Part shown: positions 13,177 through 44,913 of the stretch, in pieces
Numbering within the stretch: the first letter of the stretch is position 1
How the letters are laid out: each line of letters starts with the position of its first letter
NCBI GenBank assembly: GCA_964441335.1
Contig: CAYTUI010000001.1
Coordinates: 961 to 64,960 of the forward strand
DNA: 64,000 bases
Reading direction: 5' to 3'
DNA from: an uncultured Gammaproteobacteria bacterium
Lineage (GTDB): Bacteria; Patescibacteriota; Patescibacteriia; UBA1558; 2-01-FULL-52-15
Made by a program: the position numbers and the translations under genes
The notes under the pieces: model-generated
Databases searched by the model: none
Told to the model about the DNA's origin: nothing
The model's input: only the letters and a program-made list of their open reading frames with translations

Positions 13177-13563
13177 ATGGCAAAAAACAGTATAAAAATA
13201 TTTGGCGATTTGGAAGCAGAAATAATGGAAATCGTCTGGAAATCTGGCTCGGCATCAGTCAGGGATGTTCTATTGGCTTTAGAGAAAAGAAGAAAAATCG
13301 CCTATACCACCGTGATGACTGTTATGGCCAGGCTGTATGAGAAGGGCATTTTAAAACGCAAGATGGATGCTTGTAATGCTTTTATATATTTACCGACTCA
13401 AGGTAAACAGGCTTTTATGCAAAAAGCCTCTGAGAAAATAATCAAGGGATTCTTGAAGGAATACGGTGATGTTGCTGTAGCTCAATTTGTGGGTATAATT
13501 GAAACATCGGATGCTAAACATTCCGACGAATGGAAAAGAAAATTGAGAGGTCTGATTAAATAA
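13177..13563 (+). CDS. BlaI/MecI/CopY-family winged-helix transcriptional repressor
   Basis: N-terminal E.EIMEIVW..G..SVRDV........AYTTVMT...RL..KG pattern of the penicillinase-repressor/CopY family; paired with M56 gene downstream. Confidence 0.8.
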   Translation: MAKNSIKIFGDLEAEIMEIVWKSGSASVRDVLLALEKRRKIAYTTVMTVMARLYEKGILKRKMDACNAFIYLPTQGKQAFMQKASEKIIKGFLKEYGDVAVAQFVGIIETSDAKHSDEWKRKLRGLIK

Positions 13564-13567
13564 TATT

Positions 13568-14629
13568 ATGCAACGATCTTTTGCGCAGAAAGCCAATCTG
13601 ACATTTGTAGAAATTATAGCTATTGTTTTAAGCACAGTTGGCGTGGTTATTTTTTTATTTTGGGAAATTTATCAAAGAGTTTATTTATATGGTGGTGTCT
13701 TAATTCATAAATTACTAACCGCCTGTGGTTGTACGCAGATGGCCCAGTTAATTGCTATGCACCCATTAATATTTATTGCTGTAATTACTCTCGGTTTGGT
13801 CATTATGACCTATTTATTTTATACAGTTTATCGATTAATAAAATTAATTATTCAGACAAGAAGGTTTGTATCTTTATATTTAAAACGGGCAAAAGACCAA
13901 CACTCAACAAAATTGCGCGATGTTGTAGCTGGTTTAAATATTGATGCATCCAAGGTCATTGAAATTAGAGATGTTAGGACAGTGGTGTTTTGTTTTGGTC
14001 TTTGGCGTCCCAAAGTATGTATTTCTAGCGGTTTGATAAAAATGCTGGACAAAGGCGAGTTAGAAGCTGTTTTACTACACGAATATCATCACTTGATTTC
14101 CAGGGAGCCTGTTAAAATGTTTGCTATAAAATATTTTCAAAGTATTTTCTTCTTTTTACCGGGAATAAAAGCTGGTGTAAATAAGTATCTGACATATTCA
14201 GAATTAGCTGCTGATGAACGGGCGACGAATAATTTTCTTGATAAATTGAAGTTGGCCAGAGCTTTATACAAAATATCTGAAAAAGAGGAGAACTTACTTT
14301 TGCGAACTGGCTTGGCCTTATCTTTTTTCAGTTCCGTTATTGGGGTACGGGTTAGTAAGCTTTCAAATAATGACTACGTGCCTAATTTTAAATTGCAGGT
14401 CACGAGGTTTTATACGGGGTTAGGTATAGCAATCGTGGTTCTTTTGGGTATGATGTTATTTTTAACAGATAGCTCAAAAGCGTTCGCCATGCATGACACG
14501 GGCAGTTGTATTTCAAATATCAACGGAACTCAAAATAACGGCTTGGTTTGCGATGATAATACTCAGCAATCAGCCGGCTTAAATGAAGGCAATTACTCGG
14601 CAGCGTTAACCAACTGTAAAATGAAGTAA
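13568..14629 (+). CDS. BlaR1/M56-family membrane zinc-peptidase (signal transducer/antirepressor-like) without a recognisable sensor domain
   Basis: HEXXH (LLHEYHHLISREP) in a multi-TM context following a BlaI-like gene. Confidence 0.7.
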   Translation: MQRSFAQKANLTFVEIIAIVLSTVGVVIFLFWEIYQRVYLYGGVLIHKLLTACGCTQMAQLIAMHPLIFIAVITLGLVIMTYLFYTVYRLIKLIIQTRRFVSLYLKRAKDQHSTKLRDVVAGLNIDASKVIEIRDVRTVVFCFGLWRPKVCISSGLIKMLDKGELEAVLLHEYHHLISREPVKMFAIKYFQSIFFFLPGIKAGVNKYLTYSELAADERATNNFLDKLKLARALYKISEKEENLLLRTGLALSFFSSVIGVRVSKLSNNDYVPNFKLQVTRFYTGLGIAIVVLLGMMLFLTDSSKAFAMHDTGSCISNINGTQNNGLVCDDNTQQSAGLNEGNYSAALTNCKMK

Positions 14630-14796
14630 AGGTGGTTGTGGATAACCGGGGCTGGACAAAATATATAAACCCTACTATACTGTGTAGTAGGGTTTATTAA
14701 TTAACCATAAAATACTAATTTAAAGGCTTTTTGCGAGTTATTCAATGTTAACATCAGTAAAATATTTAATTTCATTAAACTAACTAAGAATTATTT

Positions 14797-16563
14797 ATGA
14801 GTAAAATTACAGTTCCTATAAAGGGCATGCACTGCCGGTCGTGTGAGATACTAATTGAGAATAATCTACATAACGTACCGGGTGTAAAAAAAGTTGAGGT
14901 AAGTCATAAAACTGGCAGAGCTGATATTTTTTATCACCATGAATTGCCGGCTGGAGATTTGATTGATCACGCTGTCCAAAACGCCGGTTATAGTATCGGG
15001 AAGAAAGATAAATTGGCTTGGCTTTCAAGAGACAGAAATGATTATCTCAATTTGCTCAAAGGAGCGGCAATTTTATTAATTCTGTATATTGCTGCCGAAC
15101 GTTTCGGTTTATTTAGTTTGGGGGTTAATACGCAAAGCACAAGTTTGTTTGTTGCCTTGATTGTTGGTTTGGTTGCGGGAATTTCCACTTGTATGGCTCT
15201 GGTCGGCGGATTGGTATTGAGTCTATCTGCGCGTCATGCTGAATTGCATCCAGAAATTTCCACAAAACAAAAATTTGTGCCGCACCTGTACTTCAATTTA
15301 GGCAGAATATTAGGCTTTGCTTTTTTAGGAGGCGTTATTGGGTTGGTTGGCTCCGTGGCCAGACCATCAACTGGCGTGCTTGGTTTTATGACCATAATCA
15401 TAGGTGGCGTGATGATTTTCTTGGGACTCAAGTTAGTTGAAATATTCCCGATATTAAAAGATAAATCCATATCTTTACCTAAGAGTATCTCAAAATTTTT
15501 TGGCTTAGGTCGGGAGCAAAAAGAGTATAGCCATAAAAATTCAGTTATCACAGGCGCCTTAACATTTTTCCTGCCTTGCGGTTTTACTCAAGCTATGCAG
15601 TTATACGCTGTTTCTACAGGTAGTTTTGGAAAGGGTGCATTGATTATGGGATTATTTGCTTTAGGAACCGCACCTGGATTACTCGGGGTTGGTGGTTTGG
15701 CCTCGGTCTTTAAGGGTAAAAAAGCTAAAGTATTTTTTGCTGGCACTGGGTTAGCGGTTATGTTGTTGGGTTGGTTTAATGTTGCCAATGGTAGCCAGTT
15801 GTTTTTTCAGGGCAGAACACAAGCCAATGTGGGCGTAGCTAATTCCACGGGAGTTCAGGAAGTTAAAATGGCTCAAGGCAGTTCAGGTTATTCGCCCAAT
15901 GTATTTACAGTAGAAAAAGGTAAAAAGGTAAGATGGATCATTACCTCGACTAATCAATTTACCTGTGCCAGCTCACTTGTTATGCCAAAATATGGCATTA
16001 ATAAAGGTCTGCAAAAAGGTGAAAATATTATTGAATTTGTGCCGACAGAGGTTGGGGAGATTGCTTTTTCCTGTTCAATGGGCATGTATCGGGGGAAATT
16101 TATAGTGGTTGAATCAGGTCAGGTGGGCTCTGCTGGTAAAAATTTGGCAGTTGCGCCAAGTGCTAACCTGCCCGCAGGTGGCGGGTGCGGTGGTGGAGGC
16201 GGAGGAGGGGGCTGTGGCGGGTGCGGTGGTGGTGCAAAAAAACCTTTAGATGCGGTTTCAACCAACGCCAAAGAGAACGCGACCGGTGAACAAGTAATAC
16301 AGTCGGAATATACTTTAGCCAAAGATATCGTGCCCAATAAATTTACAGTGAAAAAGGGTCAACCGGTTAGGTTTGAAGTTAACGTTAAGGAAAACGGGCG
16401 GGGTTGTATGAGTACGATTATGATACCAAACTTGGTTAATGACCCTCAGTATTTGCAGGGTGGGACAAAAATCGCCCTGACTTTTACGCCGGATAAAGCT
16501 GGGGACTATAATATTACTTGTGCTATGGGAGTGCCTCGAGGCGTAATTACCGTAACAAATTAA
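14797..16563 (+). CDS. HMA-domain fused to a DsbD_2/UreH-like polytopic permease with a Gly/Cys-rich linker and two C-terminal cupredoxin-like domains
   Basis: N-terminal GMHCRSCE (MxCxxC HMA); permease with conserved ISTCMA and FLPCGFTQAMQ cysteines; GGGCGGGGGGGGCGGCGGG linker; two ~90-aa domains with C....C.MG.Y/C.MGVPRG. Confidence 0.6.
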   Translation: MSKITVPIKGMHCRSCEILIENNLHNVPGVKKVEVSHKTGRADIFYHHELPAGDLIDHAVQNAGYSIGKKDKLAWLSRDRNDYLNLLKGAAILLILYIAAERFGLFSLGVNTQSTSLFVALIVGLVAGISTCMALVGGLVLSLSARHAELHPEISTKQKFVPHLYFNLGRILGFAFLGGVIGLVGSVARPSTGVLGFMTIIIGGVMIFLGLKLVEIFPILKDKSISLPKSISKFFGLGREQKEYSHKNSVITGALTFFLPCGFTQAMQLYAVSTGSFGKGALIMGLFALGTAPGLLGVGGLASVFKGKKAKVFFAGTGLAVMLLGWFNVANGSQLFFQGRTQANVGVANSTGVQEVKMAQGSSGYSPNVFTVEKGKKVRWIITSTNQFTCASSLVMPKYGINKGLQKGENIIEFVPTEVGEIAFSCSMGMYRGKFIVVESGQVGSAGKNLAVAPSANLPAGGGCGGGGGGGGCGGCGGGAKKPLDAVSTNAKENATGEQVIQSEYTLAKDIVPNKFTVKKGQPVRFEVNVKENGRGCMSTIMIPNLVNDPQYLQGGTKIALTFTPDKAGDYNITCAMGVPRGVITVTN

Positions 16564-16573
16564 AATAATCATT

Positions 16574-16777
16574 ATGCAAATAAATTTTACAATTACCAAC
16601 ATCGACTGTGCGGCTTGTATTAAATTAAGCCAGACAGCGCTCAAAGGTTTGCCCGGGGTGCTAAGAGTGGAGGTAAAAAATAACGGTTTAGTGTTGATAG
16701 AGTCCGAACAGGATATTGCCTGGGAGGAAATCACTGAAGCCTTAGTTAAGGTCGGTAAAAACGCCAAACAAAATTAA
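16574..16777 (+). CDS. copZ: CopZ-like copper chaperone (HMA domain)
   Basis: 67 aa, NIDCAAC metal-binding motif. Confidence 0.8.
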   Translation: MQINFTITNIDCAACIKLSQTALKGLPGVLRVEVKNNGLVLIESEQDIAWEEITEALVKVGKNAKQN

Positions 16778-16795
16778 GTTACTATTAATAAATAT

Positions 16796-17839
16796 ATGCA
16801 CACAAAATTGGACATAAAAATCAGAGGAGCGGTCGGAGTTGACGATCTTAAATTAATCGAAGGTAATTTAAAATCACAGAGCGGAATCAATACCATTAGA
16901 GCCATGCTTACTAAAGGACAGGCTATAATTAGGATTGAATTTGACAGCAAAAAAATTAGTCAACAACAAATTTACGCAATAATTAAACTGAGTGGCGATT
17001 TTAGCGTTGAAGAGCAAAGTGAAACAGATACGATACACTCCAAAGAGCTAGAGAGAGCGCCTCTAAAATCAGTAATGTCTCTGCCTGCTATGGTTAACTA
17101 TGGCTCAGAAGCTAATCCAAACAGAGCTCCATTTATTTGGGGTCTGTTGTGCGGTATTTCTATAGGTTTGAATATAATTTTTGGATTCTTGTTAATGACA
17201 GGCGGTGCTAATAACTTGCTAGCCACGAATTTATTTGCTAAGACAAATGGTCAGGTTGTCCAACAGGCAGTACAGCCACAGGCTGTTGCTCCTTCACCAA
17301 GCCAAGACGCTGGCGTGATTCAAACTTTTAATATCACTAAGAGTGATCATGTCCGCGGTGATTTCAACGCCCCGGTTACCTTGGTGGAGTATTCAGATTT
17401 TCAGTGTCCGTTCTGTGGTAAACACTTTCCGACCCTAAACAAGGTTTTGAGTGATTATACTGGGAAAGTTCGTTTGGTTTACAAACATTTCCCTTTAGGT
17501 TTTCATGAAAATGCCCAGAAAGCCGCGGAGGCGTCAGAGTGCGCTAACGAGCAAAATAAATTTTGGGAGTATCATGATAAATTATTTGAGAATCAGGCGA
17601 GTGGTTTTAGTCTAGCTAATTTTAAACAGTGGGCCAATGATTTAAGTCTTAATGCCAGTAAATTCAATGATTGTCTGGACTCTGGCAAGTACGCTAGCAA
17701 GGTACAGGCTGATGCAACTGATGGTCAAAGTAGAGGTGTACAAGGCACTCCGACGACATTCGTTAACGGGCAGGCGGTATCAGGAGCGGTTCCGTATGAA
17801 TCATTGAAAGCGGTCATTGATCAAGTTTTAAATAATTAA
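16796..17839 (+). CDS. DsbA-like thioredoxin-fold oxidoreductase with N-terminal HMA-like (Cys-less) domain and one TM segment
   Basis: C-terminal [12 protein letters not shown] (CPFC active site) in a DsbA-family context; N-terminal ferredoxin-like beta-alpha-beta-beta-alpha-beta pattern. Confidence 0.7.
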
Positions 17840-17847: not shown

Positions 17848-20811
17848 ATGGATAGAACTGTAAAATTAGGCATTGAGGGAATGCATTGCGGGTCTTGTGA
17901 AAAAATTATTGAAATGCAATTGCTGGAGATCCCGGGAGTAAAAGAGGCGAAAATAAGCTTTCAGACTGGGGAAGGCCAGATTGTTGTCGGATCAAATGTC
18001 AGTACTGACCAGTTGGTTGAAGCTGTTACTCAGGCTGGTTATAATAGCCGAATCATTAATGACCAAAATATCAACGATCAAGTGAGTAGTCAAGATGAGT
18101 CAGATGTTATTATTGAACAAAGAATTGTTGATTCTGAATCGCCAGTCAAGATTAGACTGGAATCATCAGTCCTGACGGATGGGGAATTTTCACAGAAAGA
18201 CAGTGTACCCAGTTTTAATGGTAAGGTTAATCACATTAAGAAAGGAGAGTTCGAAATTCCTCAAGGTCGGCCGGACATTGAAAAAATTATAAAGAATTTA
18301 TTTAGTGTATCAAAAATTAATCAAATGTTTGGTTTAATCTCGGACGAAGCCCCGGCCGGAGCCCCTGCCATAATCGCATCATCAATGCCCGTTACGGGTG
18401 TTGAATCGGTTTCAGTAGCAACAATACCTGATGGCCTTAAAGATAAAAAGGAAGAGCAAGTGCAGTTGACTTTAATAGGTATGCACTGCGCATCATGTGC
18501 TGGATTGATTGAGCGTGGACTTAAGAAAGTTTCCGGGGTTAAAACTGCTAATGTTAATTTTGCGGCAGAAAAAGCTAGAATTATTTTTGATTCTTCGCTG
18601 GCGTCGGTTAATCAGCTCATCAGTGCAGTGGAAAAATCTGGTTATAAAGCACGTTTGACAGATAGTAGCGATCCCGAAGCAGATAGGAGACGACGTGAAA
18701 ATGTAATAAAGGGCTATTGGAAAAAATTCGTCTGGAGTCTTGTTCTAAGTTTGCCGTTGTTATATTTTATGTTTTTGGATTTTTTCTTTTTCCTGCCTGG
18801 ACGGATGCTCTTGTTACCATATATAGGCGTGGTGTCGTTGATTCTTACGATACCGGTGCAATTTATCATTGGCTACAGTTTCTATCAGGGCATGTGGAGT
18901 AGTTTGCGAATGAAGACCTTTAATATGGACAGCCTGATTGCTATTGGTACCAGCACAGCCTTCTTTTATAGTTTATGGCAATTTCTTGATTATGTCGGTC
19001 GCACAGGCAGTGTAATTGGTTTGAATGGAGAAAAAATTCCCGAGCTATATTTTGAAACAGCGGCTTTCCTGATAACTTTCGTTATACTAGGTAAGTGGCT
19101 AGAAGCTAGGACCAAAGGTGCAACATCGGATGCTATAAAGAAGTTGATGGGGCTTCAGGCTAAAACAGCTAGGGTCATAAAAAATGGCGTGGTGGCAGAT
19201 GTACCGATTGAACAGGTTATCGCTGGCGATACTATTGTTGTCCGTCCGGGTGAAAAAATACCGGTCGATGGCATAGTCAGTAAAGGGCAGTCCAGTGTGG
19301 ACGAATCCATGATTACCGGCGAAAGTATCCCAGTAGAAAAAAATGTCGGTGATACGATTATCGGGGCTACGATTAATAAACATGGCAGTTTTGAGTTTAC
19401 CGCCACCAAAGTGGGAAGTGAAAGTACCCTGGCGCAGATTATTCGTGTTGTGGAGGAAGCCCAAGGGTCCAAGGCGCCAATTCAGGCATTTGCCGATAAA
19501 ATTTCCGCCTATTTCGTGCCGATCGTAATTGTTTTGGCTATCCTTACGTTTTTGATTTGGTATCTGTTGCTCGGTGCCACTTTGACTTTTGCTCTCATGG
19601 CCTTTACCTCGGTCATAGTTATTGCCTGTCCTTGCGCATTAGGTTTAGCCACGCCTACCGCAATAATGGTTGGCACCGGTAAAGGAGCCGAGCATGGCAT
19701 TTTGATTAAAGGCGGTGAACCGCTGGAAGCGGCCTGTAAAATTAAAGCTGTGGTCTTTGATAAAACCGGGACTTTAACCAAAGGCAAACCAGAAGTGACC
19801 GATGTTATAAGCGCGGGTCTTTCTGATGAAGAAGAAATTACTTCTATCGTTGCGAGTTTGGAAAAACTTTCCGAGCATCCCTTGGCCGAGGCTATTGTTA
19901 AATACGCCGAAGAAGAAAGTATCTCGCTGCGGGAAGCCACAGAGTTTCGAGCGATTCCAGGACATGGTGTGGAAGCTAGTATTGATGGTCAAAAATATTT
20001 TTTTGGTAACCGTAAACTTGTTACTGATGTCGTTAATTTGGGTCAAGAAGTAATAGAAAAAATTGAGCGCAAGATTCGTAAACTTGAAGAGAGTGGTAAA
20101 ACAGTAATGATTTTGAGCTCGACACAGGAAATTCTTGGTCTGATAGCGGTCGCCGATACTATTAAGGAAACCTCAATGGAAGCAGTGCGGGCTCTACAGG
20201 ATCGTCATATCGAAGTCTTTATGATTACCGGTGATAATCGTCGGACAGCCGAAGCGATTGCCCGGCAGGCTGGAATAAAAAATGTCTTGGCCGAAGTACT
20301 GCCAGAAGACAAAGCTAATGAAGTAAAAAAATTGCAGGGAACCGGTATTAAAGTAGCTATGGTTGGCGACGGTATTAATGACGCACCCGCCTTAGCTCAG
20401 GCTGATTTAGGCATTGCCATGGGCAGTGGCACTGATGTGGCAATGGAAACGGGCGGAATTGTTATTATCAAAAATGATTTACGGGATGTTATTACTGCCA
20501 TTCAGCTTAGCCGTGAGACAATGGGTAAAATTAAGCAGAATATGTTCTTTGCTTTGTTCTATAATGTCATTGGCATTCCTATTGCCGCTCGCGTTTTTAT
20601 GGCTTTCGGGTTGGTACTTAAACCGGAGTTAGCTGGTCTGGCCATGGCGTTCAGTTCAATTTCGGTAGTTTCCAATTCCTTGCTCTTGCGCTGGTTTCGG
20701 GCAGGCAAACCTAATTATTTTTCGCAGATCGCTCCTTATGTGTTAGCAATTATTTTTACCTTGGTTTTTGTGGAATTTAGTAGAATTAGTTCTGGCATGG
20801 CCACTACTTAA
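17848..20811 (+). CDS. copA: Copper-translocating P1B-type ATPase CopA with two N-terminal HMA domains
   Basis: GMHCGSCE and [11 protein letters not shown] motifs, TGES, CPC ([12 protein letters not shown]), [15 protein letters not shown]. Confidence 0.95.
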
Positions 20812-20822: not shown

Positions 20823-21332
20823 ATGAAAAATAATAAAAAATTGGACAATTTCAGTTTGTGGGTGATTATTGGTACTGTTATTTTATTATCCTTGATGATT
20901 TTTTGGGGTTCTTCAGTCCAAAAGGGTGAAGCGACTAGCAATGATGATAAAGGTAGTCAACTTCAAGCCTCCGAGAGCAGCTATGACTTCGGTTCAATTT
21001 CCATGGCCCAAGGAAAAGTTACAAAAGTTTTTAGTTTTAAGAATAACACTTCAGAAGCGATTAAGGCCAAAAAACTTTACACCTCATGTATGTGTACTAA
21101 AGCCACTCTAATTAAAACTGATCAGACCCTTGGTCCTTTTGGTATGCCAGCACATGGGTTTATTCCAGAAATTAACGTGAATATTGAGCCAGGAGAAGAG
21201 GCTAAAATTGAAACCGTATTTGATCCGGCTGCGCACGGTCCAGCTGGCGTCGGTCCCATCGCCAGAGAAGTAATATTAGAAACTAGTGATGGTAAGTTAA
21301 TATTTAAATTTAACGCCCAAGTAACTCCTTAA
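20823..21332 (+). CDS. Secreted DUF1573-family protein
   Basis: Signal peptide; YDFGSI...G.....F.F.N......I......SCMCT pattern resembling the DUF1573 conserved SCGCT core. Confidence 0.5.
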   Translation: MKNNKKLDNFSLWVIIGTVILLSLMIFWGSSVQKGEATSNDDKGSQLQASESSYDFGSISMAQGKVTKVFSFKNNTSEAIKAKKLYTSCMCTKATLIKTDQTLGPFGMPAHGFIPEINVNIEPGEEAKIETVFDPAAHGPAGVGPIAREVILETSDGKLIFKFNAQVTP

Positions 21333-21342
21333 GACCCAAAGC

Positions 21343-22128
21343 ATGAAAAACCAAAGATTATACTTTATTTTATCGGTGTTAGGGATACTCATAGCCGCTT
21401 TATTGTTATTAAAATCCAGTACTGGCTCCGCGCAGTTTATTTGGAATCTCTCCAAGGGCGGAACCTTCCTTTTTCCTTTGGTTTCTTTATCGGCTCTGAT
21501 TGACAGCATTAATCCCTGTGCTTTTTCCATCTTACTTTTGACCATCGCATTTTTATTCAGTCTGGACACTTCAAGGTCTGATCTGATTAAAATTGGCTCG
21601 GCCTATATCAGTGGAATTTTTTTGGCCTATTTACTGATTGGTCTGGGTATTTTGGGTGCTTTGCACATTTTTAACACCCCGCATTTTATGGGTAAACTGG
21701 GAGCATTTATATTGATTGCCATGGGCCTGATAAATTTGCTTGGCCAATTCATTCCGCGTTTTCCGATAAAATTACAAATTCCCGGCTTCGCGCATAACAG
21801 AATGGCAGAGTTGATGAAAAAGAGTTCGGTATCGGCGGTATTTTTCTTAGGTATGCTGGTTGGGCTTTGCGAATTTCCCTGTACCGGCGGCCCTTATCTG
21901 ATGGTTTTGGGTTTATTGAATGACGGCGCATCATATGTCAGAGGCCTGTTGTATCTTGTTTGGTATAATATTCTGTTTGTTCTACCGTTAGCGGCAATTT
22001 TATTCGTGGCCAGTGATAAAATATTGCTAACCAAATTACAGAATTGGAAGCGGAATAATTTGAATCAGACCAGATTAATCGGTGGCATAATTATGGTCGT
22101 TTTGGGAATAGTCATATTATTAATCTAA
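21343..22128 (+). CDS. CcdA/DsbD-family thiol:disulfide interchange membrane protein-like
   Basis: 6-8 TM helices with conserved Cys in TM1 (NPCAFSIL) and in a CxxC-like CEFPCTGGP segment. Confidence 0.5.
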   Translation: MKNQRLYFILSVLGILIAALLLLKSSTGSAQFIWNLSKGGTFLFPLVSLSALIDSINPCAFSILLLTIAFLFSLDTSRSDLIKIGSAYISGIFLAYLLIGLGILGALHIFNTPHFMGKLGAFILIAMGLINLLGQFIPRFPIKLQIPGFAHNRMAELMKKSSVSAVFFLGMLVGLCEFPCTGGPYLMVLGLLNDGASYVRGLLYLVWYNILFVLPLAAILFVASDKILLTKLQNWKRNNLNQTRLIGGIIMVVLGIVILLI

Positions 22129-22132
22129 AATT

Positions 22133-22642
22133 ATGAGAGAAATAAGAAATTATCAGGACTTAATGCAAAAGGTTAATCAGATCAAACAAGACGGCAAAAT
22201 TGATTTGTCCATGGAAGAGGATTTGAGTATTGCTGTCATGAATTTAATCAGTTTGGAGGAGCATTTCTTTTTTACGGCGGAAAAAACCGGTAAAGACTCC
22301 TATATTAATCTATTGGAAACAGTTAGAGATATGAGGAAAGAGCTTTTGGCTATGATGATAAAAAAGTATGAGGGAGAGACTTGGTGTATTGCCAAACATT
22401 TGCTGGCCGCCTCAATGAGATTAATGGAAGTAGGGACAAAATTACAGTCTGGGGGGCAGCCTGATCAGGCCAAAAATATGTTTGCTAAATCTTACGAACT
22501 GTTCAATTTATTTTTTGCCGTACGGCTTAAACTTATTGACTTGCCTGAACTAAAAAATAACGCAAAGTCAGAAATTAATTTGGATCAGCCATGGACCAAG
22601 GAAGAGATAATGAATAAATTATTGGATTGCTGCAAAGAATAA
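22133..22642 (+). CDS. Hypothetical cytoplasmic protein
   Basis: ORF with RBS; no recognisable motif. Confidence 0.45.
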   Translation: MREIRNYQDLMQKVNQIKQDGKIDLSMEEDLSIAVMNLISLEEHFFFTAEKTGKDSYINLLETVRDMRKELLAMMIKKYEGETWCIAKHLLAASMRLMEVGTKLQSGGQPDQAKNMFAKSYELFNLFFAVRLKLIDLPELKNNAKSEINLDQPWTKEEIMNKLLDCCKE

Positions 22643-22878
22643 ATCAAATTTTTATGCATCACGATTATAAAGGAGATCATGATAGCCACAAAAAAGTAAT
22701 GTGGCTAATGATGTTAATCTGTGCCCTGCCGATATTATTTATTCTCTTCTCCGCAGCTAAGACACGTTTTTTCGCTATATTATTTTTAGCAGCTTGCTGT
22801 ATTGATGGCCATTTTTTGCTGATGAAATTATTGGGGCATTCAGGCCATACTAATAAGGACAAGCCAGATAAAGAGTAA
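22627..22878 (+). CDS. Small His-rich membrane protein (possible metal-binding)
   Basis: HHDYKGDHDSHKK N-terminus, two TM helices, C-terminal HSGHTNKDKPDKE. Confidence 0.4.
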   Translation: MLQRINQIFMHHDYKGDHDSHKKVMWLMMLICALPILFILFSAAKTRFFAILFLAACCIDGHFLLMKLLGHSGHTNKDKPDKE

Positions 22879-23025: not shown

Positions 23026-25290
23026 ATGCAGACAATAAAAAATAGTCATTATTCTAGCAATCAGAAAAAAAAGTGCTCTGATTGTATCAACTGTAGTGCT
23101 TGTCAGGTAAATCATCTAAGCGTCAGCTGTGGCTGTGACAATGAGGCCAAACAATTCGAATACCGCGGACATATTCACAGCGAGCATCATGATCATGGAG
23201 GTCGGGCGCCAATCACAGCGCAAACCAAAAAAGCACATTCTGGTCATGCTAGCGCTAAGATGAATCATGCAGATCATGCGGCTGCCATGAGTAATCCGGC
23301 GATAGCGAAATTTATGGAGGAAGATATGCGCCGCCGTTTTTTTATCTCTCTGATATTGTCCATACCGACTTTTCTGTATTCCCCTGTGGGCATAGATTTT
23401 TTTAAATTAAATTTACCTACTCCTATTCCCGTCAATTTGTTGCTGTTAATTTTTACCACGCCAATCGTTCTTTGGGCTGGCTCAATTTTTATTAGCGGGA
23501 CATATCATTCTCTGCGGGCAGGAAAATTAAATATGTCAGTATTGATTTTTACCGGGGTCATGACCGCCTATTTGTTTAGCCTTTTTTTGACCTTTACGGG
23601 TGGTCAGGAAACATTTTATGAAGCCGCGGCCTTGTTGGTGACTTTTGTACTCTTTGGGCACTGGATGGAAATGCGTTCGCGTCGGGGAACATCGGATGCT
23701 TTGCGCGCGCTTTTTGATTTAGTACCGCCACAGGCGATTATAATTCGTGACGGTCGGGAAATGACTGTTGCTAGCGCGGAGATAATTAATGGCGACGTGG
23801 TAATAATTAAACCTGGCAATAAAATTCCTGTTGATGGAGAGGTGGTTGAAGGGGACACGTATATTGATGAATCTTTAGTAACTGGCGAGTCGCTGCCGGT
23901 GCATAAGGCTAGTGGCAGTTCGGTGGTTGGGGGGTCAATCAATAAGAATGGCACGATTAAATTCAAGGCCACCAAAGTCGGTAGTGATACTGTTTTAGCT
24001 CAAATCATTAAACTGGTTGAGAGTGCCCAGAATTCCAAGGCACCGGGGCAGAGGATTGCGGACAAAGCGGCTGCGATATTAGTAATTGTTGCTATCGGTT
24101 CAGGCCTAGCCGCTTTTATTGGATGGTACGTGATAGCTGGCGTCAGTTTTATCATAGCTTTGACTTTTGCTGTTTCGACTATTGTTATTGCTTGTCCGGA
24201 TGCTTTGGGGTTGGCGACTCCTACTGCGGTGGCCGTGGGCACCGGCATAGGTGCTAAACATAATATTCTAATTAAAGATGCCACAACGCTGGAAAAAACC
24301 GCTAAAATTAATGCCATTGTTATGGATAAAACAGGTACCTTGACCAAAGGACAACCGGAGGTAACCGATGTTGTTTCCTTTAACTCTTCTTTGGCAGACG
24401 AGGCTGCTGTATTTCAACTGGTGGCATCAATAGAAAAAAATTCAGAGCACCCTTTGGCCAGCACTATTATCAAGAAAGCTGTCAAAGATAAAGTTGAATT
24501 TTTACCCCTTCATAACTTTGCTGCTATTACTGGTCAGGGCGTTAAGGGGACGACTACTGATAACCAGCAAATATTTTTAGGCAACATAAAATTATTAGCT
24601 GACGCTGGCATTTCTTTAACGGCAAAAGATCAGCAAAGAGTGCAATCTTTACAGACTGAAGGCAAAACAGTAATGATATTGGCCAAAGATAAAGAGGTTT
24701 TAGGGGTTATAGCTGTAGCCGATACTGTGCGCGATAGCTCGAAGAGGGCAGTAGAATTACTGCAAAGGATGAAAGTTGAAATAATTATGATTACTGGTGA
24801 TAATATTCAGACGGCGCAGGCCATCGCGGCCAAGCTGGGCATTGAACGCGTGTTTGCCGATGTCTTGCCGGCGGACAAAGCAAACTGGATAAAAAAACTT
24901 CAAACTGAAGGCAAATTCGTGGCTATGGTGGGTGATGGCATTAATGACGCGCCAGCCTTAGCCCAGTCTGATATTGGTATTGCTATCGGCGCCGGAACAG
25001 ACGTAGCTATAGAGACAGCTAGTATTGTTTTAATGAAATCCGATCCTTTGGATATCGTCGCTGCTATTCGCCTTAGTAAGGCGACGGTAAATAAAATGCG
25101 GCAGAATTTATTTTGGGCGGCAATTTATAATCTAATAGCCATTCCTTTTGCGGCTGGCGTTTTTTATAACTCTCTAGGATGGTCTTTACGACCGGAAATC
25201 TCGGCCTTACTGATGTCAGTGTCATCAATTGTTGTCGCTACCAATGCGGTATTGTTAAAAAGAGTAGAACCAAAATTAACAGTTAATTAG
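23026..25290 (+). CDS. CopB-like heavy-metal P1B-type ATPase with Cys/His-rich N-terminus and atypical CPD transmembrane motif
   Basis: N-terminal CSDCINCSAC..SCGCD and HIHSEHHDHGG.. His-rich stretch; TGES; IACPDALGLATP (CPD instead of CPC/CPH); DKTGTLT; GDGINDAP. Confidence 0.9.
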   Translation: MQTIKNSHYSSNQKKKCSDCINCSACQVNHLSVSCGCDNEAKQFEYRGHIHSEHHDHGGRAPITAQTKKAHSGHASAKMNHADHAAAMSNPAIAKFMEEDMRRRFFISLILSIPTFLYSPVGIDFFKLNLPTPIPVNLLLLIFTTPIVLWAGSIFISGTYHSLRAGKLNMSVLIFTGVMTAYLFSLFLTFTGGQETFYEAAALLVTFVLFGHWMEMRSRRGTSDALRALFDLVPPQAIIIRDGREMTVASAEIINGDVVIIKPGNKIPVDGEVVEGDTYIDESLVTGESLPVHKASGSSVVGGSINKNGTIKFKATKVGSDTVLAQIIKLVESAQNSKAPGQRIADKAAAILVIVAIGSGLAAFIGWYVIAGVSFIIALTFAVSTIVIACPDALGLATPTAVAVGTGIGAKHNILIKDATTLEKTAKINAIVMDKTGTLTKGQPEVTDVVSFNSSLADEAAVFQLVASIEKNSEHPLASTIIKKAVKDKVEFLPLHNFAAITGQGVKGTTTDNQQIFLGNIKLLADAGISLTAKDQQRVQSLQTEGKTVMILAKDKEVLGVIAVADTVRDSSKRAVELLQRMKVEIIMITGDNIQTAQAIAAKLGIERVFADVLPADKANWIKKLQTEGKFVAMVGDGINDAPALAQSDIGIAIGAGTDVAIETASIVLMKSDPLDIVAAIRLSKATVNKMRQNLFWAAIYNLIAIPFAAGVFYNSLGWSLRPEISALLMSVSSIVVATNAVLLKRVEPKLTVN

Positions 25291-25307: not shown

Positions 25308-25442
25308 ATGATTAATTATAGTTATATGATGGGCAGTTCGGGAGGCGGCTTGATGTTTTTTTCATGGACCACTTATATTCTGTTAACTGCATTGCTGATT
25401 CTTGGCATAGCCGCTTTATGGAAATATATTAATAAAAAATAG
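25308..25442 (+). CDS. Small membrane protein (44 aa), not in ORF track
   Basis: Strong RBS GGAAGGAGG 7 nt upstream of ATG; MINYSYMMGSSGGGLMFFSWTTYILLTALLILGIAALWKYINKK, one TM helix. Confidence 0.45.
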   Translation: MINYSYMMGSSGGGLMFFSWTTYILLTALLILGIAALWKYINKK

Positions 25443-25443: not shown

Positions 25444-25698
25444 ATGATTAGTGCGAAACATTTACTTAAAGTCAGTTTAGTATGGGTCAATATCGTTTAT
25501 GTAATTTGTTTTTTGGTCGTGGTAATTTATCCGCCGCTAAGGGAACAATTCATGCTCTACGCGTTACACACTAACGTGGAGTTAGGCCAGGACGTGACCA
25601 CGGTTACTACGTTTATTACAGGCTTGATTTGGTGGAACATTTTAGCGGTGTCGGCAGTTGGACTGTTCGCTTGGTTAGACCATAAAATTAAGAAGTAG
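25444..25698 (+). CDS. Small hypothetical membrane protein
   Basis: 84-aa ORF, two TM helices. Confidence 0.4.
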   Translation: MISAKHLLKVSLVWVNIVYVICFLVVVIYPPLREQFMLYALHTNVELGQDVTTVTTFITGLIWWNILAVSAVGLFAWLDHKIKK

Positions 25699-25852
25699 AG
25701 TTACTTAGGGGACATTTTGGTGATCCTGGTAATTGATGTTGATTAATGTTGGGATTTGTTTATTTAGGCGATGTTATAAAATTTTTCGTCTTTTAGAGTT
25801 TCTATAATGACTGATTTTTTATGATTTTAAGATTGAAAATTTAATTGAAATT

Positions 25853-26878
25853 ATGTCAGACAGCAAAACATATGTATTTCACGTGGCCGGCATGCACTGT
25901 TCGGCCTGCGAGATATTAATTGAAGACGAATTAGGAGCGGCTCCGGGCGTTAGCCAAGTGAAGGCCAATTTAGCTAAAAATCAGGTGACAGTTACTTTGG
26001 ATAATCCGGGCGAGCCAGAAGCTATTACCAAAGAGTTATCGGCTAAAATTGCCTCCAAAGGCTACAGCCTGCAGACTGAAAAAATTAAGCCTAACCGGCA
26101 GTGGCAAGATTTCTGGTATGCCGTGCCTTTGGCCGCTATTCTGATTATCATATTTGTCTATCTGCAAAAGATTGGTTTAGTAAACTTAGTTAGTGGCTCA
26201 AGAGTTAATTACGCGACAGCTTTGTTAATCGGCGCTATTGCTTCTGTGTCCACCTGTTTAGCGGTAGTCGGAGGATTAACTTTATCGTTGTCGGCTAATT
26301 ATGCTAAGAGTGGCGCTAAATTTTTACCGCACGTAATGTTTCACACTGGACGATTGGTCGGTTTTTTTCTATTAGGTGGTTTACTGGGTTTGTTAGGGAA
26401 GTCATTTAATATGAGTTTAAGTATCGGAAATACTTTGGGTTTGGTAGTAGCTGTAATTATGTTAATACTAGGGTTAAATTTATTGGATGTTTTTAAGTTC
26501 ACAAAGAAATTACAGTTTAGGATGCCGAAAATTACGGCCAAGCATGCTACTAGACAATCAGTTAAAGGCGGGCGACTAACGCCGATAATAATTGGCGTAA
26601 TAACTTTTTTTCTGCCCTGCGGTTTTACGCAATCCATGCAGGTTTATGCTTTGACAACTGGTAGTTTTCTAACCGGCGCTCTGACCATGGCGACTTTTGC
26701 TTTAGGTACGCTACCTGCTTTGGCTTTATTGTCTTTTGGCTCATTTAGCCTAGCTCATAAATCCTGGTCAGGTATATTTTTTAAGACCGCTGGTCTGATA
26801 GTTATGACCATGGCGTTATTTAATCTGGCCAATATTTTAGCAGTGATGGGCATTATTAATCCAATCTTTAATTTTTAA
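25853..26878 (+). CDS. HMA-domain fused to DsbD_2/UreH-like permease (paralog of 14797..16563 without cupredoxin domains)
   Basis: GMHCSACE HMA motif; conserved VSTCLA and FLPCGFTQSMQ positions shared with the paralog. Confidence 0.6.
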   Translation: MSDSKTYVFHVAGMHCSACEILIEDELGAAPGVSQVKANLAKNQVTVTLDNPGEPEAITKELSAKIASKGYSLQTEKIKPNRQWQDFWYAVPLAAILIIIFVYLQKIGLVNLVSGSRVNYATALLIGAIASVSTCLAVVGGLTLSLSANYAKSGAKFLPHVMFHTGRLVGFFLLGGLLGLLGKSFNMSLSIGNTLGLVVAVIMLILGLNLLDVFKFTKKLQFRMPKITAKHATRQSVKGGRLTPIIIGVITFFLPCGFTQSMQVYALTTGSFLTGALTMATFALGTLPALALLSFGSFSLAHKSWSGIFFKTAGLIVMTMALFNLANILAVMGIINPIFNF

Positions 26879-26886
26879 TTATAAAA

Positions 26887-27279
26887 ATGAAAAAAATTAT
26901 TATTCCAATCGTCATAATAGTTGTTTTAGTGGGAGGGGTATATTTATTAGGTAAGCAGGCGAGTGGCGGCACCGATAATACTGGGATTTCCGACAACGTT
27001 AAACAAGTTGGCGGACAACAGGTAGTAGAGATTTTTGCCAAAGGCGGCTATTCGCCAAGAGTTGCCAATGCTCAAGCCGGGGTAGAAACAGTTTTGAAAA
27101 TTTCCACCAACGGAACGTATGATTGCTCTTCCAGTTTGGTAATCCCCAGCTTAAATTACCGTAAATTTTTACAACCGACCGGCGTGGAAGAGATTACTAT
27201 CCCTAAAGATAAAGCCATCGGCAAATTGCGAGGACTATGCGGTATGGGTATGTATTCTTTTGAGATTAGGTTTCAGTAG
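26887..27279 (+). CDS. Small secreted cupredoxin-like protein
   Basis: Signal anchor; domain homologous to the C-terminal modules of 14797..16563 (YDCSSSLVIPSL...GLCGMGMY). Confidence 0.5.
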   Translation: MKKIIIPIVIIVVLVGGVYLLGKQASGGTDNTGISDNVKQVGGQQVVEIFAKGGYSPRVANAQAGVETVLKISTNGTYDCSSSLVIPSLNYRKFLQPTGVEEITIPKDKAIGKLRGLCGMGMYSFEIRFQ

Positions 27280-27439: not shown

Positions 27440-28114
27440 ATGACAGTTAATAGAAAATATGAATTCGCCGTAATTGCTACCGACATTGCTATTTTCGCCG
27501 TAATTGATGGTAAATTACAGGTATTAATGATTGAGATGGTGAAACCACCTTTTACCGGTCAGTGGGCTTTACCGGGCGGACTGATAAAAATCACAGAGAC
27601 CGTTGAAAATGCGGCTAAGCGCACTTTGCTGGAAAAGACTGGCGTCCAGGATGTTTATCTGGAGCAGCTCTTTACTTTTGGTGAGGTTAACCGTGATCCT
27701 TTTGGGAGAGTGGTATCGGTAGCTTATTTTGTTTTAATTTCTGATCCAACCAAGTTAAAACTAAAGGCCGGACGAGAATATAGAAATATAGGCTGGAAAT
27801 CAGTTGATCGGTTGCCTGTTTTGGCTTACGATCACAAGAAAATAGTAGCGGTAGCTATTGAGCGTTTACGATCTAAATTATCTTATACTAATATTGTTTA
27901 TGGTCTATTGCCGAAAGAATTTACTTTAACAGAATTCCAAAGTCTATATGAATTAATTTTAGATCAGCAGTTTGATAAAAGAAATTTCCGTAAAAAAATG
28001 TTGTCATTAGGACTAATAAAGAAGTCAGGACGAAAACAGAGTGGAGTGGCTAACCGACCAGCCAACCTTTTTTCCTTTTCCAGCCGCTCCCCAAAAGTAG
28101 TAGAAATATTATAA
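27440..28114 (+). CDS. nrtR: NrtR-type regulator: Nudix-like ADP-ribose-binding domain fused to C-terminal winged helix
   Basis: Degenerate Nudix fold (QWALPGG...E....AAKR.L.EKTG) plus ~90-aa C-terminal domain; sits directly upstream of pnuC-nadR. A paralog lies at 40501. Confidence 0.7.
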   Translation: MTVNRKYEFAVIATDIAIFAVIDGKLQVLMIEMVKPPFTGQWALPGGLIKITETVENAAKRTLLEKTGVQDVYLEQLFTFGEVNRDPFGRVVSVAYFVLISDPTKLKLKAGREYRNIGWKSVDRLPVLAYDHKKIVAVAIERLRSKLSYTNIVYGLLPKEFTLTEFQSLYELILDQQFDKRNFRKKMLSLGLIKKSGRKQSGVANRPANLFSFSSRSPKVVEIL

Positions 28115-30875: not shown

Positions 30876-31060
30876 TTGCTGGCTGGTTGGCAGACTGCTT
30901 GGGATGTTAAGCCGGGCTTGTGGGAGGGTCACGTCAGTGACCCTCCCACACCTAATTTTTTAGAAACTTGTTCCCAACAATCGTTGGAGACAAATTTCTA
31001 ACCTTGATTTTTTTGAGGTTATGCACCTTTCCAAGTCAACAACAAACAAGGAGGTAGCCG

Positions 31061-32449: not shown

Positions 32450-32459
32450 TCGTTGAAAG

Positions 32460-32491
32460 CCGCAGGGACGAGCAGCAGCTCGTCCCTGCGG
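32460..32491 (+). terminator. Hairpin terminator CCGCAGGGACGAGC-AGC-AGCTCGTCCCTGCGG
   Basis: 14-bp perfect stem; followed by AT-rich spacer with a second palindrome CCTTGTTTCAAACAAGG. Confidence 0.55.
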
Positions 32492-32600
32492 ACCCAATTT
32501 TGAAATAAAGAATTGCCAGTTTTATAAGTTGTCAGTTCCTTGTTTCAAACAAGGCCAAGTTCTTTGTAAATCTAAGAGATCAAAACCAAGGAGGAAAAAC

Positions 32601-33188: not shown

Positions 33189-33212
33189 CAGTTTCCAGGA
33201 GAGGAGTTTTCA

Positions 33213-34838: not shown

Positions 34839-34970
34839 AGCTGCTACAAGCCGGTGGTCACCAGCAGGTGACCACCGGCCCTTACTTCAGCCTTGTCATA
34901 AAGAAAATGAAAGGGTTGAAGAGAGGCTAGTTCATTCAATGTCTATTCTAAAACCAAGGAGGTGCTCTAA

Positions 34971-35927: not shown

Positions 35928-36057
35928 TTAGGTGGAGGACGGGGCATCTGCGTCGGCGCAGATGCCCCCTTTCCCGAGGTCTTATCATCTATAGATAAGG
36001 TCTTAGGAGAGTTCAGTTCTTTAACACGCAACCATCTAAAACCAAGGAGGAGAGGGA

Positions 36058-43452: not shown

Positions 43453-43498
43453 CTCCTTAACCTGACAACCGTAAATCCTAAACCAAAGAGAGGTGACT

Positions 43499-44884: not shown

Positions 44885-44913
44885 ATGCGTGAACGCGAAA
44901 GGAGATAGTGCAG

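What the first reader, a model, noticed from the sequence alone, without database searches (positions are those of the whole stretch)
23026..25290. P1B-type ATPase with CPD (not CPC/CPH/SPC) TM6 motif and a Cys-cluster plus His-rich N-terminus
The intramembrane metal-site motif is IACPDALGLATP. The usual P1B subgroups use CPC, CPH, SPC or TPC, so Asp in the third position is rare and may change metal selectivity. The N-terminus combines a CxxC-rich cluster (CSDCINCSACQ...SCGCD) with a CopB-like His-rich stretch.
Basis: partly seen in the sequence, partly recalled or inferred. Interest (0 to 1): 0.5.

Follow-up and report, generated by a model that had tools for sequence, protein, structure and literature searches.

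The report
CopB-related copper pump with Cys-Pro-Asp motif
This is an intact heavy-metal export pump from a groundwater candidate-phyla-radiation bacterium; its unusual Cys-Pro-Asp metal-site motif is the hallmark of a widespread, already noted but never tested branch of copper pumps next to CopB, so it is a real curiosity, not a new kind of system.

Summary
Window 23026-25290 (+) encodes a 754-aa P1B-type ATPase with all catalytic motifs, IACPDALGLATP in TM4, a Cys cluster and a His/Met-rich N-terminus.

CPD is not a read error. The identical protein occurs on 8 contigs from independent groundwater assemblies. All 120 closest homologues (60-74% identity, those named by a source being Patescibacteria) carry the same motif.

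CPD is not confined to one lineage. The motif was called "novel CPD" in three rhizobial Cu-ATPases in 2017. I found no functional data.

In neighbour-joining trees with the motif masked, CPD and CPH (CopB) pumps form one clade (98-100% bootstrap). The signal comes mainly from the membrane helices. TM5 and TM6 keep the copper signature (YN, MxxSS).

The gene sits in a copper island next to a classical CPC CopA, HMA-DsbD fusions and cupredoxin-like proteins.

The most likely function is an auxiliary copper exporter of CopB type. The metal is inferred, not shown.

The N-terminal Cys module (CxCx3Cx2C...CGC..EAKQYEY) recurs in the clade and matches no Pfam family.

Verdict: new member of a known, uncharacterised subtype, of modest interest.

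The parts
23026..25290 (+). CPD-type P1B heavy-metal ATPase, 754 aa
   Evidence: ORF. Pfam E1-E2_ATPase 2.2e-52 and Hydrolase 2.3e-37. NCBIfam TIGR01525 597.6 bits (cut-off 346) and TIGR01511 Cu-ATPase 574 bits (cut-off 397). Best solved relative is A. fulgidus CopA 7r0g, E 5.9e-165. AF2 model pLDDT 80.6, best Foldseek match 7r0g.
23074..23196 (+). N-terminal Cys module (residues 17-57): CSDCINCSACQVNHLSVSCGCDNEAKQFEYRGHIHSEHHDH
   Evidence: The same module (consensus CxCGKxCLxCxAEKLxVxCGCxMEAKQYEY..KLxHxEH) is in 42 of the 120 closest homologues. It has no Pfam match. In 1.9 Mb of held loci its profile hits only N-termini of CPD ATPases. AF2 gives it low confidence.
23236..23322 (+). His/Met-rich juxtamembrane motif (residues 71-99): HSGHASAKMNHADHAAAMSNPAIAKFMEE
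   Evidence: H81, D83, H84, A87, M88 and P91 are nearly invariant or invariant in alignment A1. The family consensus is HxGHDMSKMSHxDHEAAMTNPQMAKxME. It resembles the MDHSKMDHS repeats of a CPH CopB (L123).
23656..23673 (+). TM2 motif GHWMEM (residues 211-216)
   Evidence: H212, W213 and M216 are shared by CPD (98-100%) and CPH (90-100%) pumps. CPC pumps mostly have K, Y and A at these positions. E215 is invariant. A role at the metal entry site is inferred.
24187..24222 (+). TM4 metal-site motif IACPDALGLATP (residues 388-399); D392 codon GAT at 24199-24201
   Evidence: It aligns with the CPC of A. fulgidus CopA. It is invariant in 120 of 120 homologues and in alignment A1.
24325..24339 (+). 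Phosphorylation motif DKTGT (D434-T438)
   Evidence: Read from the sequence. D434, K435, T436 and G437 are invariant in A1; T438 is nearly invariant.
25105..25146 (+). TM5 signature NLFWAAIYNLIAIP (N694-P707) = N(x)6YN(x)4P
   Evidence: This is the copper-type signature. Ile, not Gly, precedes YN, as in the CPR/Chloroflexi flavour of CPD pumps.
25213..25245 (+). TM6 signature MSVSSIVVATN (M730-N740) = M(x)2SS(x)5N
   Evidence: S734 is shared with CPC pumps, whereas CPH pumps have Thr there.
17848..20811 (+). Neighbouring classical CopA: 987 aa, two HMA domains (CGSC, CASC), [19 protein letters not shown]
13177..14629 (+). BlaI/Penicillinase_R-type repressor (13177-13563) and M56 BlaR1-like membrane protease (13568-14629), at the head of the island
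   Evidence: Pfam precomputed for the same contig; M56 and M48 hits.
14797..17839 (+). HMA-DsbD_2-Cupredoxin_1 fusion (14797-16563) and a DsbA/Thioredoxin_4 protein (16796-17839)
20823..22878 (+). DUF1573 protein, DsbD_TM/SfLAP-like membrane protein, unknown 169-aa protein and a small His-rich membrane ORF, directly upstream of the pump
   Evidence: DUF1573, the DsbD_TM-like protein and the 169-aa protein recur next to CPD pumps in L059, L113 and L254.
25444..27279 (+). Downstream genes: DUF5676 2-TM protein (25444-25698), HMA-DsbD_2 fusion (25853-26878), Cupredoxin_1 protein (26887-27279)
   Evidence: Similar neighbours lie beside CPD pumps in L049 and L074.

Best explanation
The gene encodes a working ATP-driven heavy-metal export pump (P1B-type ATPase). 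It belongs to a distinct clade in which the second cysteine of the membrane CPC motif is always aspartate. This clade is the closest relative of the CopB (CPH) copper pumps.

The most likely function is a second, CopB-like copper exporter working beside the classical CopA encoded 2.2 kb upstream.

Proposed cycle (all steps inferred):
- Cytoplasmic copper is caught by the Cys module and the His/Met-rich N-terminal tail, which has no HMA domain.
- It is handed to an entry site on TM2, the clade-specific GHWxEM motif.
- It is occluded between C390 and D392 (TM4), Y701 and N702 (TM5), and M730 and S734 (TM6).
- It is released outside after phosphorylation of D434.

Shown here: the fold, the catalytic and copper-signature motifs, the clade, and the copper gene context. 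Inferred: the identity and oxidation state of the metal, and the roles of the tail and of TM2.
For: Catalytic motifs are complete: TGES 286-289, DKTGT 434-438, SEHP 472-475, MITGD 588-592 and GDGINDAP 636-643.

Family and structure:
- The NCBIfam copper-ATPase model is passed (574 bits against a cut-off of 397).
- The best solved relatives are all CopA/ATP7-type copper pumps.
- TM5 N(x)6YN(x)4P and TM6 M(x)2SS(x)5N are the copper signature.

Relationship to CopB:
- With the CPx columns masked, CPD+CPH form a clade in 98-100 of 100 neighbour-joining bootstraps, and in 88 of 100 with membrane columns alone.
- Shared derived residues include H212, W213, M216, L352, A356, P674 and M691.
- The N-terminus is His/Met-rich as in CopB.

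Copper context in the window: CopA with 2 HMA domains, two HMA-DsbD_2 fusions and cupredoxin-like domains.

Context elsewhere:
- Rhodococcus: multicopper oxidase, HMA protein, CPC CopA and DUF305.
- Deinococcus: DUF305 and a four-helix-bundle copper-binding protein.
- Ralstonia: CopC, a four-helix-bundle copper protein and a heavy-metal two-component system.
- 10 CPC ATPase genes lie within the roughly 8-kb loci fetched around CPD genes in the species-genome scan, plus one on the Rhodococcus plasmid.
Against: - No CPD pump has been tested, and I found no functional paper.
- A carboxylate is a hard ligand, unusual for Cu(I), and could favour Cu(II) or another divalent ion.
- The link to CopB rests mostly on membrane columns. 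Cytosolic columns alone do not recover it (0 of 100 exact splits, 55:45 on a lenient count).
- In the A-domain, CPD is closer to CPC (0.52 against 0.44 identity).
- One relative (P0012) has a CsoR/RcnR-family regulator 3 kb upstream with C-H-H ligands, which by my recollection of that family's fingerprints are RcnR-like and not CsoR-like.
- Three proteobacterial CPD pumps are followed by an MFS transporter and not by copper genes.
Confidence: 0.6

Rival explanations
1. The Asp retunes the membrane site for a harder, divalent ion, such as Cu(II), Zn(II), Pb(II), Cd(II), Ni(II) or Co(II). On this reading the pump widens the metal range of the island and does not duplicate CopA.
For: - D392 is the one site-lining residue that separates the clade from both CPC and CPH pumps (D-only column).
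- The organism already has a standard CopA next door, so a second identical function seems redundant.
- There is an RcnR-like C-H-H regulator near homologue P0012.
- An MFS transporter, an RND pump and a GDCCVxC protein lie next to the proteobacterial members.
- From my own knowledge, Asp in TM6 is a Zn(II) ligand in ZntA.
Against: - None of the other divalent-metal signatures is present. There is no TM5 Lys and no TM6 DxG (P1B-2), and no SPC or HEGxT (P1B-4), as the sequence shows.
- The copper residues YN and MxxSS are conserved throughout the clade.
- Zn/Cd models score far below their cut-offs (NF033775 314 bits against 1240).
- CopA plus CopB pairs are common in organisms where both are reported to move copper (own knowledge).
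Confidence: 0.22
2. It is a low-rate copper pump whose job is to supply copper to extracytoplasmic copper proteins (as FixI/CcoI-type pumps do), not to detoxify. Candidate clients are the cupredoxin-like proteins encoded downstream.
For: - It is immediately followed by an HMA-DsbD_2 membrane protein and a Cupredoxin_1 protein.
- A similar HMA-DsbD_2-Cupredoxin fusion and a DsbA lie upstream.
- Similar neighbours occur at L049 and L074.
Against: - The cupredoxin-like neighbours are not conserved across the clade.
- Many members sit on plasmid resistance islands.
- Pfam Cupredoxin_1 matches here are modest (33.8 bits), and copper-binding ligands were not checked.
Confidence: 0.12
3. The CPD codon is a sequencing or assembly error, or the gene is a decaying pseudogene.
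For: None found.
Against: - The identical protein is on 8 contigs from independent assemblies.
- 120 of 120 homologues have CPD.
- 117 further species genomes carry it.
- All catalytic motifs are intact and many columns are invariant.
Confidence: 0.01

Closest known systems
CopB / P1B-3 copper ATPases (CPH motif; e.g. Enterococcus hirae, Archaeoglobus fulgidus, Sphaerobacter thermophilus CopB)
   Same: - Sister grouping in neighbour-joining trees (98-100% bootstrap).
- Shared TM2 GHWxEM and other derived residues.
- His/Met-rich N-terminus without a CxxC HMA domain.
- YN in TM5.
- Encoded beside a CopA.
   Different: - Asp in place of His in TM4.
- TM6 reads MSVSS, not MSxST.
- Ile, not Gly, precedes YN.
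- SKAP, T398, G405, G407 and P444 are CopA-like.
- It has an extra Cys module.
- Cytosolic domains are no closer to CopB than to CopA.
CopA / P1B-1 Cu(I) ATPases (CPC motif; A. fulgidus CopA 7r0g, L. pneumophila CopA 3rfu)
   Same: - Best solved-structure matches (E 5.9e-165, 41% identity).
- Exact P1B-1 patterns in TM5 and TM6.
- It passes the TIGR01511 model.
   Different: - CPD, not CPC.
- No HMA domain.
- TM2 HW..M where most CopA sequences have K/Y..A.
- It falls outside the sampled CPC sequences in the tree.
'CPD' rhizobial Cu-ATPases, cluster VIc of Cubillas et al. 2017 (Xanthobacter autotrophicus, Nitrobacter hamburgensis, Bradyrhizobium sp.; PMC5552934)
   Same: - CPD in TM4 and YN(x)4P in TM5, placed next to CPH pumps.
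- The Nitrobacter protein was checked here and has CPD.
- 46-52% identity to the query.
   Different: - Those pumps are the Actinobacteria/Proteobacteria flavour: GYN, MSGSS, an HMA-like N-terminal fold without CxxC plus a CG[YF]HC motif, and few His.
- The window protein is the CPR/Chloroflexi flavour: IYN, MS[AVIL]SS, a His-rich tail and the Cys module.

Membership tests
P-type ATPase superfamily | DKTGT phosphorylation site, TGE(S) dephosphorylation loop and GDGxNDxP hinge | tested here: met
   D434KTGT, T286GES and G636DGINDAP are in the sequence and invariant in A1. Pfam E1-E2_ATPase and Hydrolase match.
P1B heavy-metal ATPases | Eight membrane helices (MA, MB, M1-M6), a xPx motif followed by ALGLATP in M4, and the SEHP motif in the nucleotide domain | tested here: met
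   TIGR01525 scores 597.6 bits against a cut-off of 346. The AF2 model has helices at 91-117, 136-164, 170-191, 198-230, 340-369, 373-411, 674-709 and 723-751. S472EHP is present.
P1B-1 (CopA, Cu+) | CPC in M4 | tested here: not met
   The motif is CPD; it aligns to the CPC of 7r0g.
P1B-1 (CopA, Cu+) | N(x)6YN(x)4P in M5 and M(x)2SS(x)5N in M6 | tested here: met
   NLFWAAIYNLIAIP and MSVSSIVVATN. The pattern definitions come from my own knowledge of Arguello 2003 and are partly quoted in PMC5552934.
P1B-1 (CopA, Cu+) | N-terminal HMA domain(s) with CxxC | tested here: not met
   There is no HMA hit at E <= 0.01 and none at E <= 10 on the N-terminus alone.
P1B-3 (CopB) | CPH in M4 | tested here: not met
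   CPD; Asp is fixed across the clade.
P1B-3 (CopB) | His-rich N-terminus in place of a CxxC HMA domain | tested here: met
   11 His in the first 99 residues, with a conserved HxDHxxAM motif.
P1B-3 (CopB) | MSxST in M6 (and GYN in M5) | tested here: not met
   MSVSS and IYN. In one search, S734 is shared with CPC, while CPH has Thr.
P1B-3 (CopB) | Phylogenetic grouping with CPH pumps | tested here: inconclusive
   98-100 of 100 neighbour-joining bootstraps on all columns and 88 of 100 on membrane columns, but no support from cytosolic columns alone. No maximum-likelihood test was possible.
CPD subtype of Cubillas et al. 2017 (cluster VIc) | CPD in TM6 (their numbering), YN(x)4P, MSGSS, and low His content at the N-terminus | tested here: inconclusive
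   CPD and YN(x)4P are met. MSVSS replaces MSGSS and the N-terminus is His-rich. In the tree it is in the same CPD clade, but monophyly of all CPD has only 34-41% bootstrap.
P1B-2 (ZntA/CadA, Zn/Cd/Pb) | CPC with Lys in M5 and DxG in M6 | tested here: not met
   The sequence has YN in M5 and MSVSS in M6. NF033775 scores 314 bits against 1240, and TIGR01512 scores below the Cu model.
P1B-4 (Co/Fe/Zn) | SPC in M4, HEGxT in M6, and only six membrane helices | tested here: not met
   CPD, no HEGxT, and MA/MB helices present. The best P1B-4 structure, 7qbz, scores only E 4.3e-78.

The most novel reading that the evidence does not exclude
CPD pumps are a functionally distinct P1B subgroup in which the Cys/Asp/Met membrane site selects a different species from CopA and CopB, for example Cu(II) or another divalent ion. 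They would also be loaded or gated by a previously undescribed N-terminal Cys4-6/His metal-binding module specific to the CPR/Chloroflexi branch.
Probability: 0.2. Interest if true: 0.6.

Novelty: new member of a known kind. Interest (0 to 1): 0.32.

Why it matters
Metal selectivity in P1B pumps is usually read off the TM4 motif. After the 2018 revision of CopB from Cu(II) to Cu(I), which I know from the literature but could not read here, it is unclear how much the third residue matters.

The CPD clade is a natural experiment. It has the same scaffold and copper signature, with a carboxylate where CopA has a thiolate and CopB an imidazole. It is fixed in at least 117 species genomes, and found on plasmids of environmental bacteria, yet untested.

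Cultivable hosts such as Rhodococcus, Ralstonia, Nitrobacter and Deinococcus make it testable.

For this window alone the finding is modest. It shows that small-genome CPR bacteria carry a two-pump copper island and an unannotated Cys-rich N-terminal module.

Tried and rejected
1. Read error or pseudogene: rejected.

2. Key reviews: Smith et al. 2014 and Purohit et al. 2018 are not held. What I say about them is from memory.

3. Literature searches for CPD with P1B or ATPase terms, and for 'Cys-Pro-Asp', gave only Cubillas 2017. One apparent hit used CPD to mean critical point drying.

4. Cys module:
- Pfam at E <= 10 found nothing meaningful.
- A big-database search with the window's own module found no candidates.
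- The 47-column profile found only one 67-aa fragment. That tool's word index is unsuited to so short a query.
- AF2 gave pLDDT of about 60 or less for residues 1-80, so there is no fold to compare.

5. I suspected that CopF of Cupriavidus metallidurans pMOL30 might be CPD-type. That plasmid was not among the 60 best matches listed for a Ralstonia CPD pump, so I dropped the idea. Only those 60 rows were examined.

6. Promoter and terminator scans of the island did not exceed shuffled controls (45 against 39.4 +/- 6.2, and 16 against 13.6 +/- 3.1).

7. I could not measure site geometry because model coordinates are not exposed to scripts.
Full report
**Observation**

Window 23026-25290 (+) is one ORF of 754 codons. 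It contains IACPDALGLATP at residues 388-399, and the Asp codon is GAT at 24199-24201. The N-terminus reads C17SDC20INC23SAC26-x8-C35GC37DNEAKQFEYRGHIHSEHHDH. It is followed by HSGHASAKMNHADHAAAMSNP just before the first membrane helix.

**What the protein is**

- Pfam finds E1-E2_ATPase (2.2e-52) and the HAD hydrolase domain (2.3e-37), and no HMA domain.
- NCBIfam places it above the curated cut-offs of the heavy-metal model (TIGR01525, 597.6 bits against 346) and the copper model (TIGR01511, 574 against 397). It is far below the cut-offs of the Zn/Cd models.
- The best solved relatives are copper pumps: A. fulgidus CopA 7r0g (5.9e-165), L. pneumophila CopA, plant HMA4 and human ATP7B. In the alignment, the CPC of CopA lies over CPD.
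- An AlphaFold2 model built on 89 sequences has mean pLDDT 80.6, with eight membrane helices and the A, P and N domains. Its best Foldseek match is again 7r0g.
- TGES, DKTGT, SEHP, MITGD and GDGINDAP are all present and invariant or nearly so among homologues.

It is therefore an intact pump.

**Is CPD an error or a one-off?**

No.
- The exact 754-aa protein is on 8 contigs from separate assemblies of groundwater samples: JGI 3300009031, Logan SRR2177986 and ENA SRR2177956.
- The 120 best homologues share 60-74% identity, and those named by a source are labelled Patescibacteria, Parcubacteria, Moranbacteria, Kerfeldbacteria or Liptonbacteria. All carry IACPDALGLATP.

**How widespread is CPD?**

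Of these, 117 hold a P1B ATPase ORF with CPD. The record titles name Actinomycetota, Alpha-, Beta- and Gammaproteobacteria, Chloroflexota, Bacteroidota, Gemmatimonadota, Vicinamibacterales, Armatimonadota, Dormibacterota, Myxococcota and several CPR lineages.

Related pumps lie on plasmids. CPD was confirmed directly in three of them: Rhodococcus sp. 008, Nitrobacter hamburgensis X14 and Deinococcus gobiensis. The stop-to-stop ORF scan used from then on sweeps every held locus and keeps those with the TM4 motif; the Ralstonia insidiosa (L248), Xanthobacter Py2 (L249) and Streptomyces FR1 (L250) plasmid loci were fetched later and their ATPases were not individually inspected for the motif, though they share 58-91% identity with a confirmed CPD pump. 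The remaining plasmid hosts listed (Mycolicibacterium, Variovorax, Bradyrhizobium and others) were likewise not checked for the motif.

In sequence space the clade is compact. Among the 150 best representatives of 50%-identity clusters, 7 are CPD and 1 is SPD. By the strict pattern 129 are CPC and 6 are CPH; 6 more are CPC and 1 more is CPH with variant flanks.

'Rare' is therefore fair as a share of P1B diversity. It is not fair as a statement about occurrence.

**Prior description**

One paper in the searchable library mentions the motif. Cubillas et al. [quoted passage not shown] I confirmed CPD in the Nitrobacter plasmid gene. I found no functional work.

**Placement**

I assembled complete cores of three groups:
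- CPD pumps, from the genome scan and the homologue list.
- CPH pumps, from a metagenome scan and a viral-contig scan for the CPH pattern.
- CPC pumps, from neighbours of CPD genes, the window's own CopA and the representative search.

The first tree used 179 sequences (101 CPD, 66 CPH, 11 CPC, 1 APC). CPD and CPH were each exactly monophyletic.

The second tree used 240 sequences (56 CPD, 40 CPH, 143 CPC, 1 APC outgroup) and 609 columns, with the three CPx columns masked. Neighbour-joining bootstraps gave:
- CPD+CPH clade: 98 and 100 of 100.
- CPH alone: 92.
- CPD alone: only 34-41, because a Deinococcus-type sequence (CPDALALATP, MSVST) floats at the base.

Residues shared by CPD and CPH but not by most CPC sequences include H212, W213 and M216 (TM2 GHWxEM), L352, A356, R569, P674, M691 and A705. 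Residues shared by CPD and CPC but not by most CPH sequences include A339, P340, T398, G405, G407, P444 and S734. The D-only positions are D392 and N336.

The signal is uneven across the protein:
- Membrane columns alone recover CPD+CPH in 88 of 100 replicates.
- Cytosolic columns alone never give the exact split, and give 55:45 on a lenient count.
- In the A-domain, CPD is closer to CPC (0.52 against 0.44 mean identity).

My reading is that CPD pumps are a slowly evolving sister or grade to the faster-evolving CopB clade, intermediate between CopA and CopB. This rests on distance trees only.

**Two flavours of CPD pump**

- Actinobacterial and proteobacterial members have [VF]V[IV][TA]CPD, GYN and MSGS[ST]. 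Their N-terminus is an HMA-like fold lacking CxxC, followed by CG[YF]HC.
- CPR, Chloroflexi, Bacteroidota and Armatimonadota members, including this one, have V[VI]IACPD, IYN and MS[AVIL]SS..VATN.

**The N-terminus**

In the CPR-type family the N-terminus is modular.

- Module 1 is the Cys module, with consensus CxCGKxCLxCxAEKLxVxCGCxMEAKQYEY..KLxHxEH. Three Cys are invariant and a fourth is nearly so; two more are variable. It is present in 42 of 120 homologues, including this protein.
- Module 2 is the Pfam HMBD domain (YTCPMHPEV...CPGCGM). By my motif pattern, 80 of 120 have it; this protein lacks it.
- Module 3 is HxGHDMSKMSHxDHEAAMTNPxxAKxME, abutting helix MA. By my motif pattern, 111 of 120 have it, and it is nearly invariant in A1. 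It resembles the MDHSKMDHS repeats of a CPH CopB (L123).

The Cys module has no Pfam match. In the 1.9 Mb of loci held here it is found only at the N-termini of CPD pumps. AF2 does not fold it confidently. Wider searches were uninformative.

**Genomic context**

The pump lies in a one-strand island, about 13.2-27.3 kb. In order it encodes:
- a BlaI-type repressor and an M56 sensor-protease;
- an HMA-DsbD_2-cupredoxin fusion;
- a DsbA;
- a classical CopA (987 aa, two HMA domains, CPC, MAFSS);
- DUF1573;
- a DsbD_TM-like protein;
- two unknown small proteins;
- the CPD pump;
- DUF5676;
- an HMA-DsbD_2 fusion;
- a cupredoxin-like protein.

Parts of this set recur beside CPD pumps in other CPR genomes (L049, L059, L074, L113, L254).

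Elsewhere, CPD pumps sit beside the following:
- Rhodococcus: a CPC CopA, a multicopper oxidase and DUF305.
- Deinococcus: DUF305 and a four-helix-bundle copper protein.
- Ralstonia: CopC and a heavy-metal two-component system.
- Nitrobacter, Ralstonia and Xanthobacter: an MFS transporter directly downstream.
- Ten CPC ATPase genes lie inside the roughly 8-kb loci fetched around CPD genes in the species-genome scan, plus one on the Rhodococcus plasmid.

**Mechanism**

Shown:
- It is an intact P1B pump with the copper-type TM5 and TM6 residues.
- Cys/Asp replaces Cys/Cys or Cys/His in TM4.
- It has a metal-ligand-rich tail and lies in a copper island.

Inferred:
- It exports copper as a CopB-like partner of CopA.
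- The tail and the juxtamembrane HxDHxxAM motif pass the ion to the clade-specific His/Glu/Met cluster on TM2, and from there to the site formed by C390, D392, Y701, N702, M730 and S734.
- A Met/Asp-type Cu(I) site has a precedent in the labile copper site of CueO (own knowledge), so Asp does not exclude Cu(I).
- Asp may also serve as a protonatable residue that aids release. This is speculation.

I give this explanation 0.6. The main rival, a shift toward Cu(II) or another divalent ion, gets about 0.2. A copper-delivery role gets about 0.1.

**Verdict**

The gene is a new member of a known but uncharacterised subtype. The most useful outcomes are three: the CPD clade is large, fixed and testable in cultivable hosts; it sits next to CopB; and its CPR branch carries an unannotated Cys-rich module. 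Interest is modest (0.32).

Noticed in passing
window 29958-38082 and 42289-46083: Two blocks of 55-59% GC lie in a genome of about 40% GC. The first encodes NAD-related genes: CTP_transf/NAD-kinase fusion, NUDIX, NAPRTase, a weak radical-SAM match and NAD synthase. The second encodes an adenylosuccinate-synthetase-like protein and unknowns. Each block follows an NrtR-type regulator (27440-28114 and 40501-41202). The junction into the first block is present in independent assemblies, so it is not a chimera. Horizontal transfer looks likely.
   Followed up: partly
window 14660-14702: A near-perfect palindrome (21-nt arms, 86% complementary, 1 nt apart) overlaps a promoter-like site upstream of the HMA-DsbD_2-cupredoxin gene. 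It is a candidate operator for the BlaI-type repressor at 13177-13563. No second copy was seen in the island.
   Followed up: partly
window 16178-16232 (inside ORF 14797-16563): A 12-nt tandem repeat encodes a Gly/Cys-rich linker (GGGCGGGGGGGGCGGCGGG) between two cupredoxin-like domains. On the JGI contig the same region is called as separate genes of 483 and 113 aa. The repeat may vary in length or cause frame problems between assemblies.
   Followed up: no
L001, L248, L249 (Nitrobacter, Ralstonia and Xanthobacter plasmids): In Proteobacteria the CPD pump gene is directly followed by an MFS transporter gene in all three loci inspected. This is a conserved pair of unknown meaning.
   Followed up: no
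L254 4564-4833: A CsoR/RcnR-family regulator lies 3 kb upstream of the CPD pump of homologue P0012. It has Cys33, His58 and His62 (x-C-H-H spacing). By my recollection this is closer to the Ni/Co sensor RcnR than to the Cu(I) sensor CsoR.
   Followed up: no
window 22627-22878 and 25444-25698: Small membrane ORFs flank the pump. One is an 83-aa ORF with His-rich ends (MHHDYKGDHDSHKK...GHSGHTNKD) and no family match. The other is a DUF5676 2-TM protein. The JGI gene calls differ: 74 aa at about 22654-22878, and a 44-aa gene at about 25308-25442 where I read DUF5676.
   Followed up: no
L002 5815-8277; L001 5752-8187: Actinobacterial and proteobacterial CPD pumps start with an HMA-like fold that lacks the CxxC metal site (e.g. 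VQGLQWATS). It ends in a conserved CG[YF]HC[AS]G motif, seen in 49 of the CPD loci scanned.
   Followed up: partly
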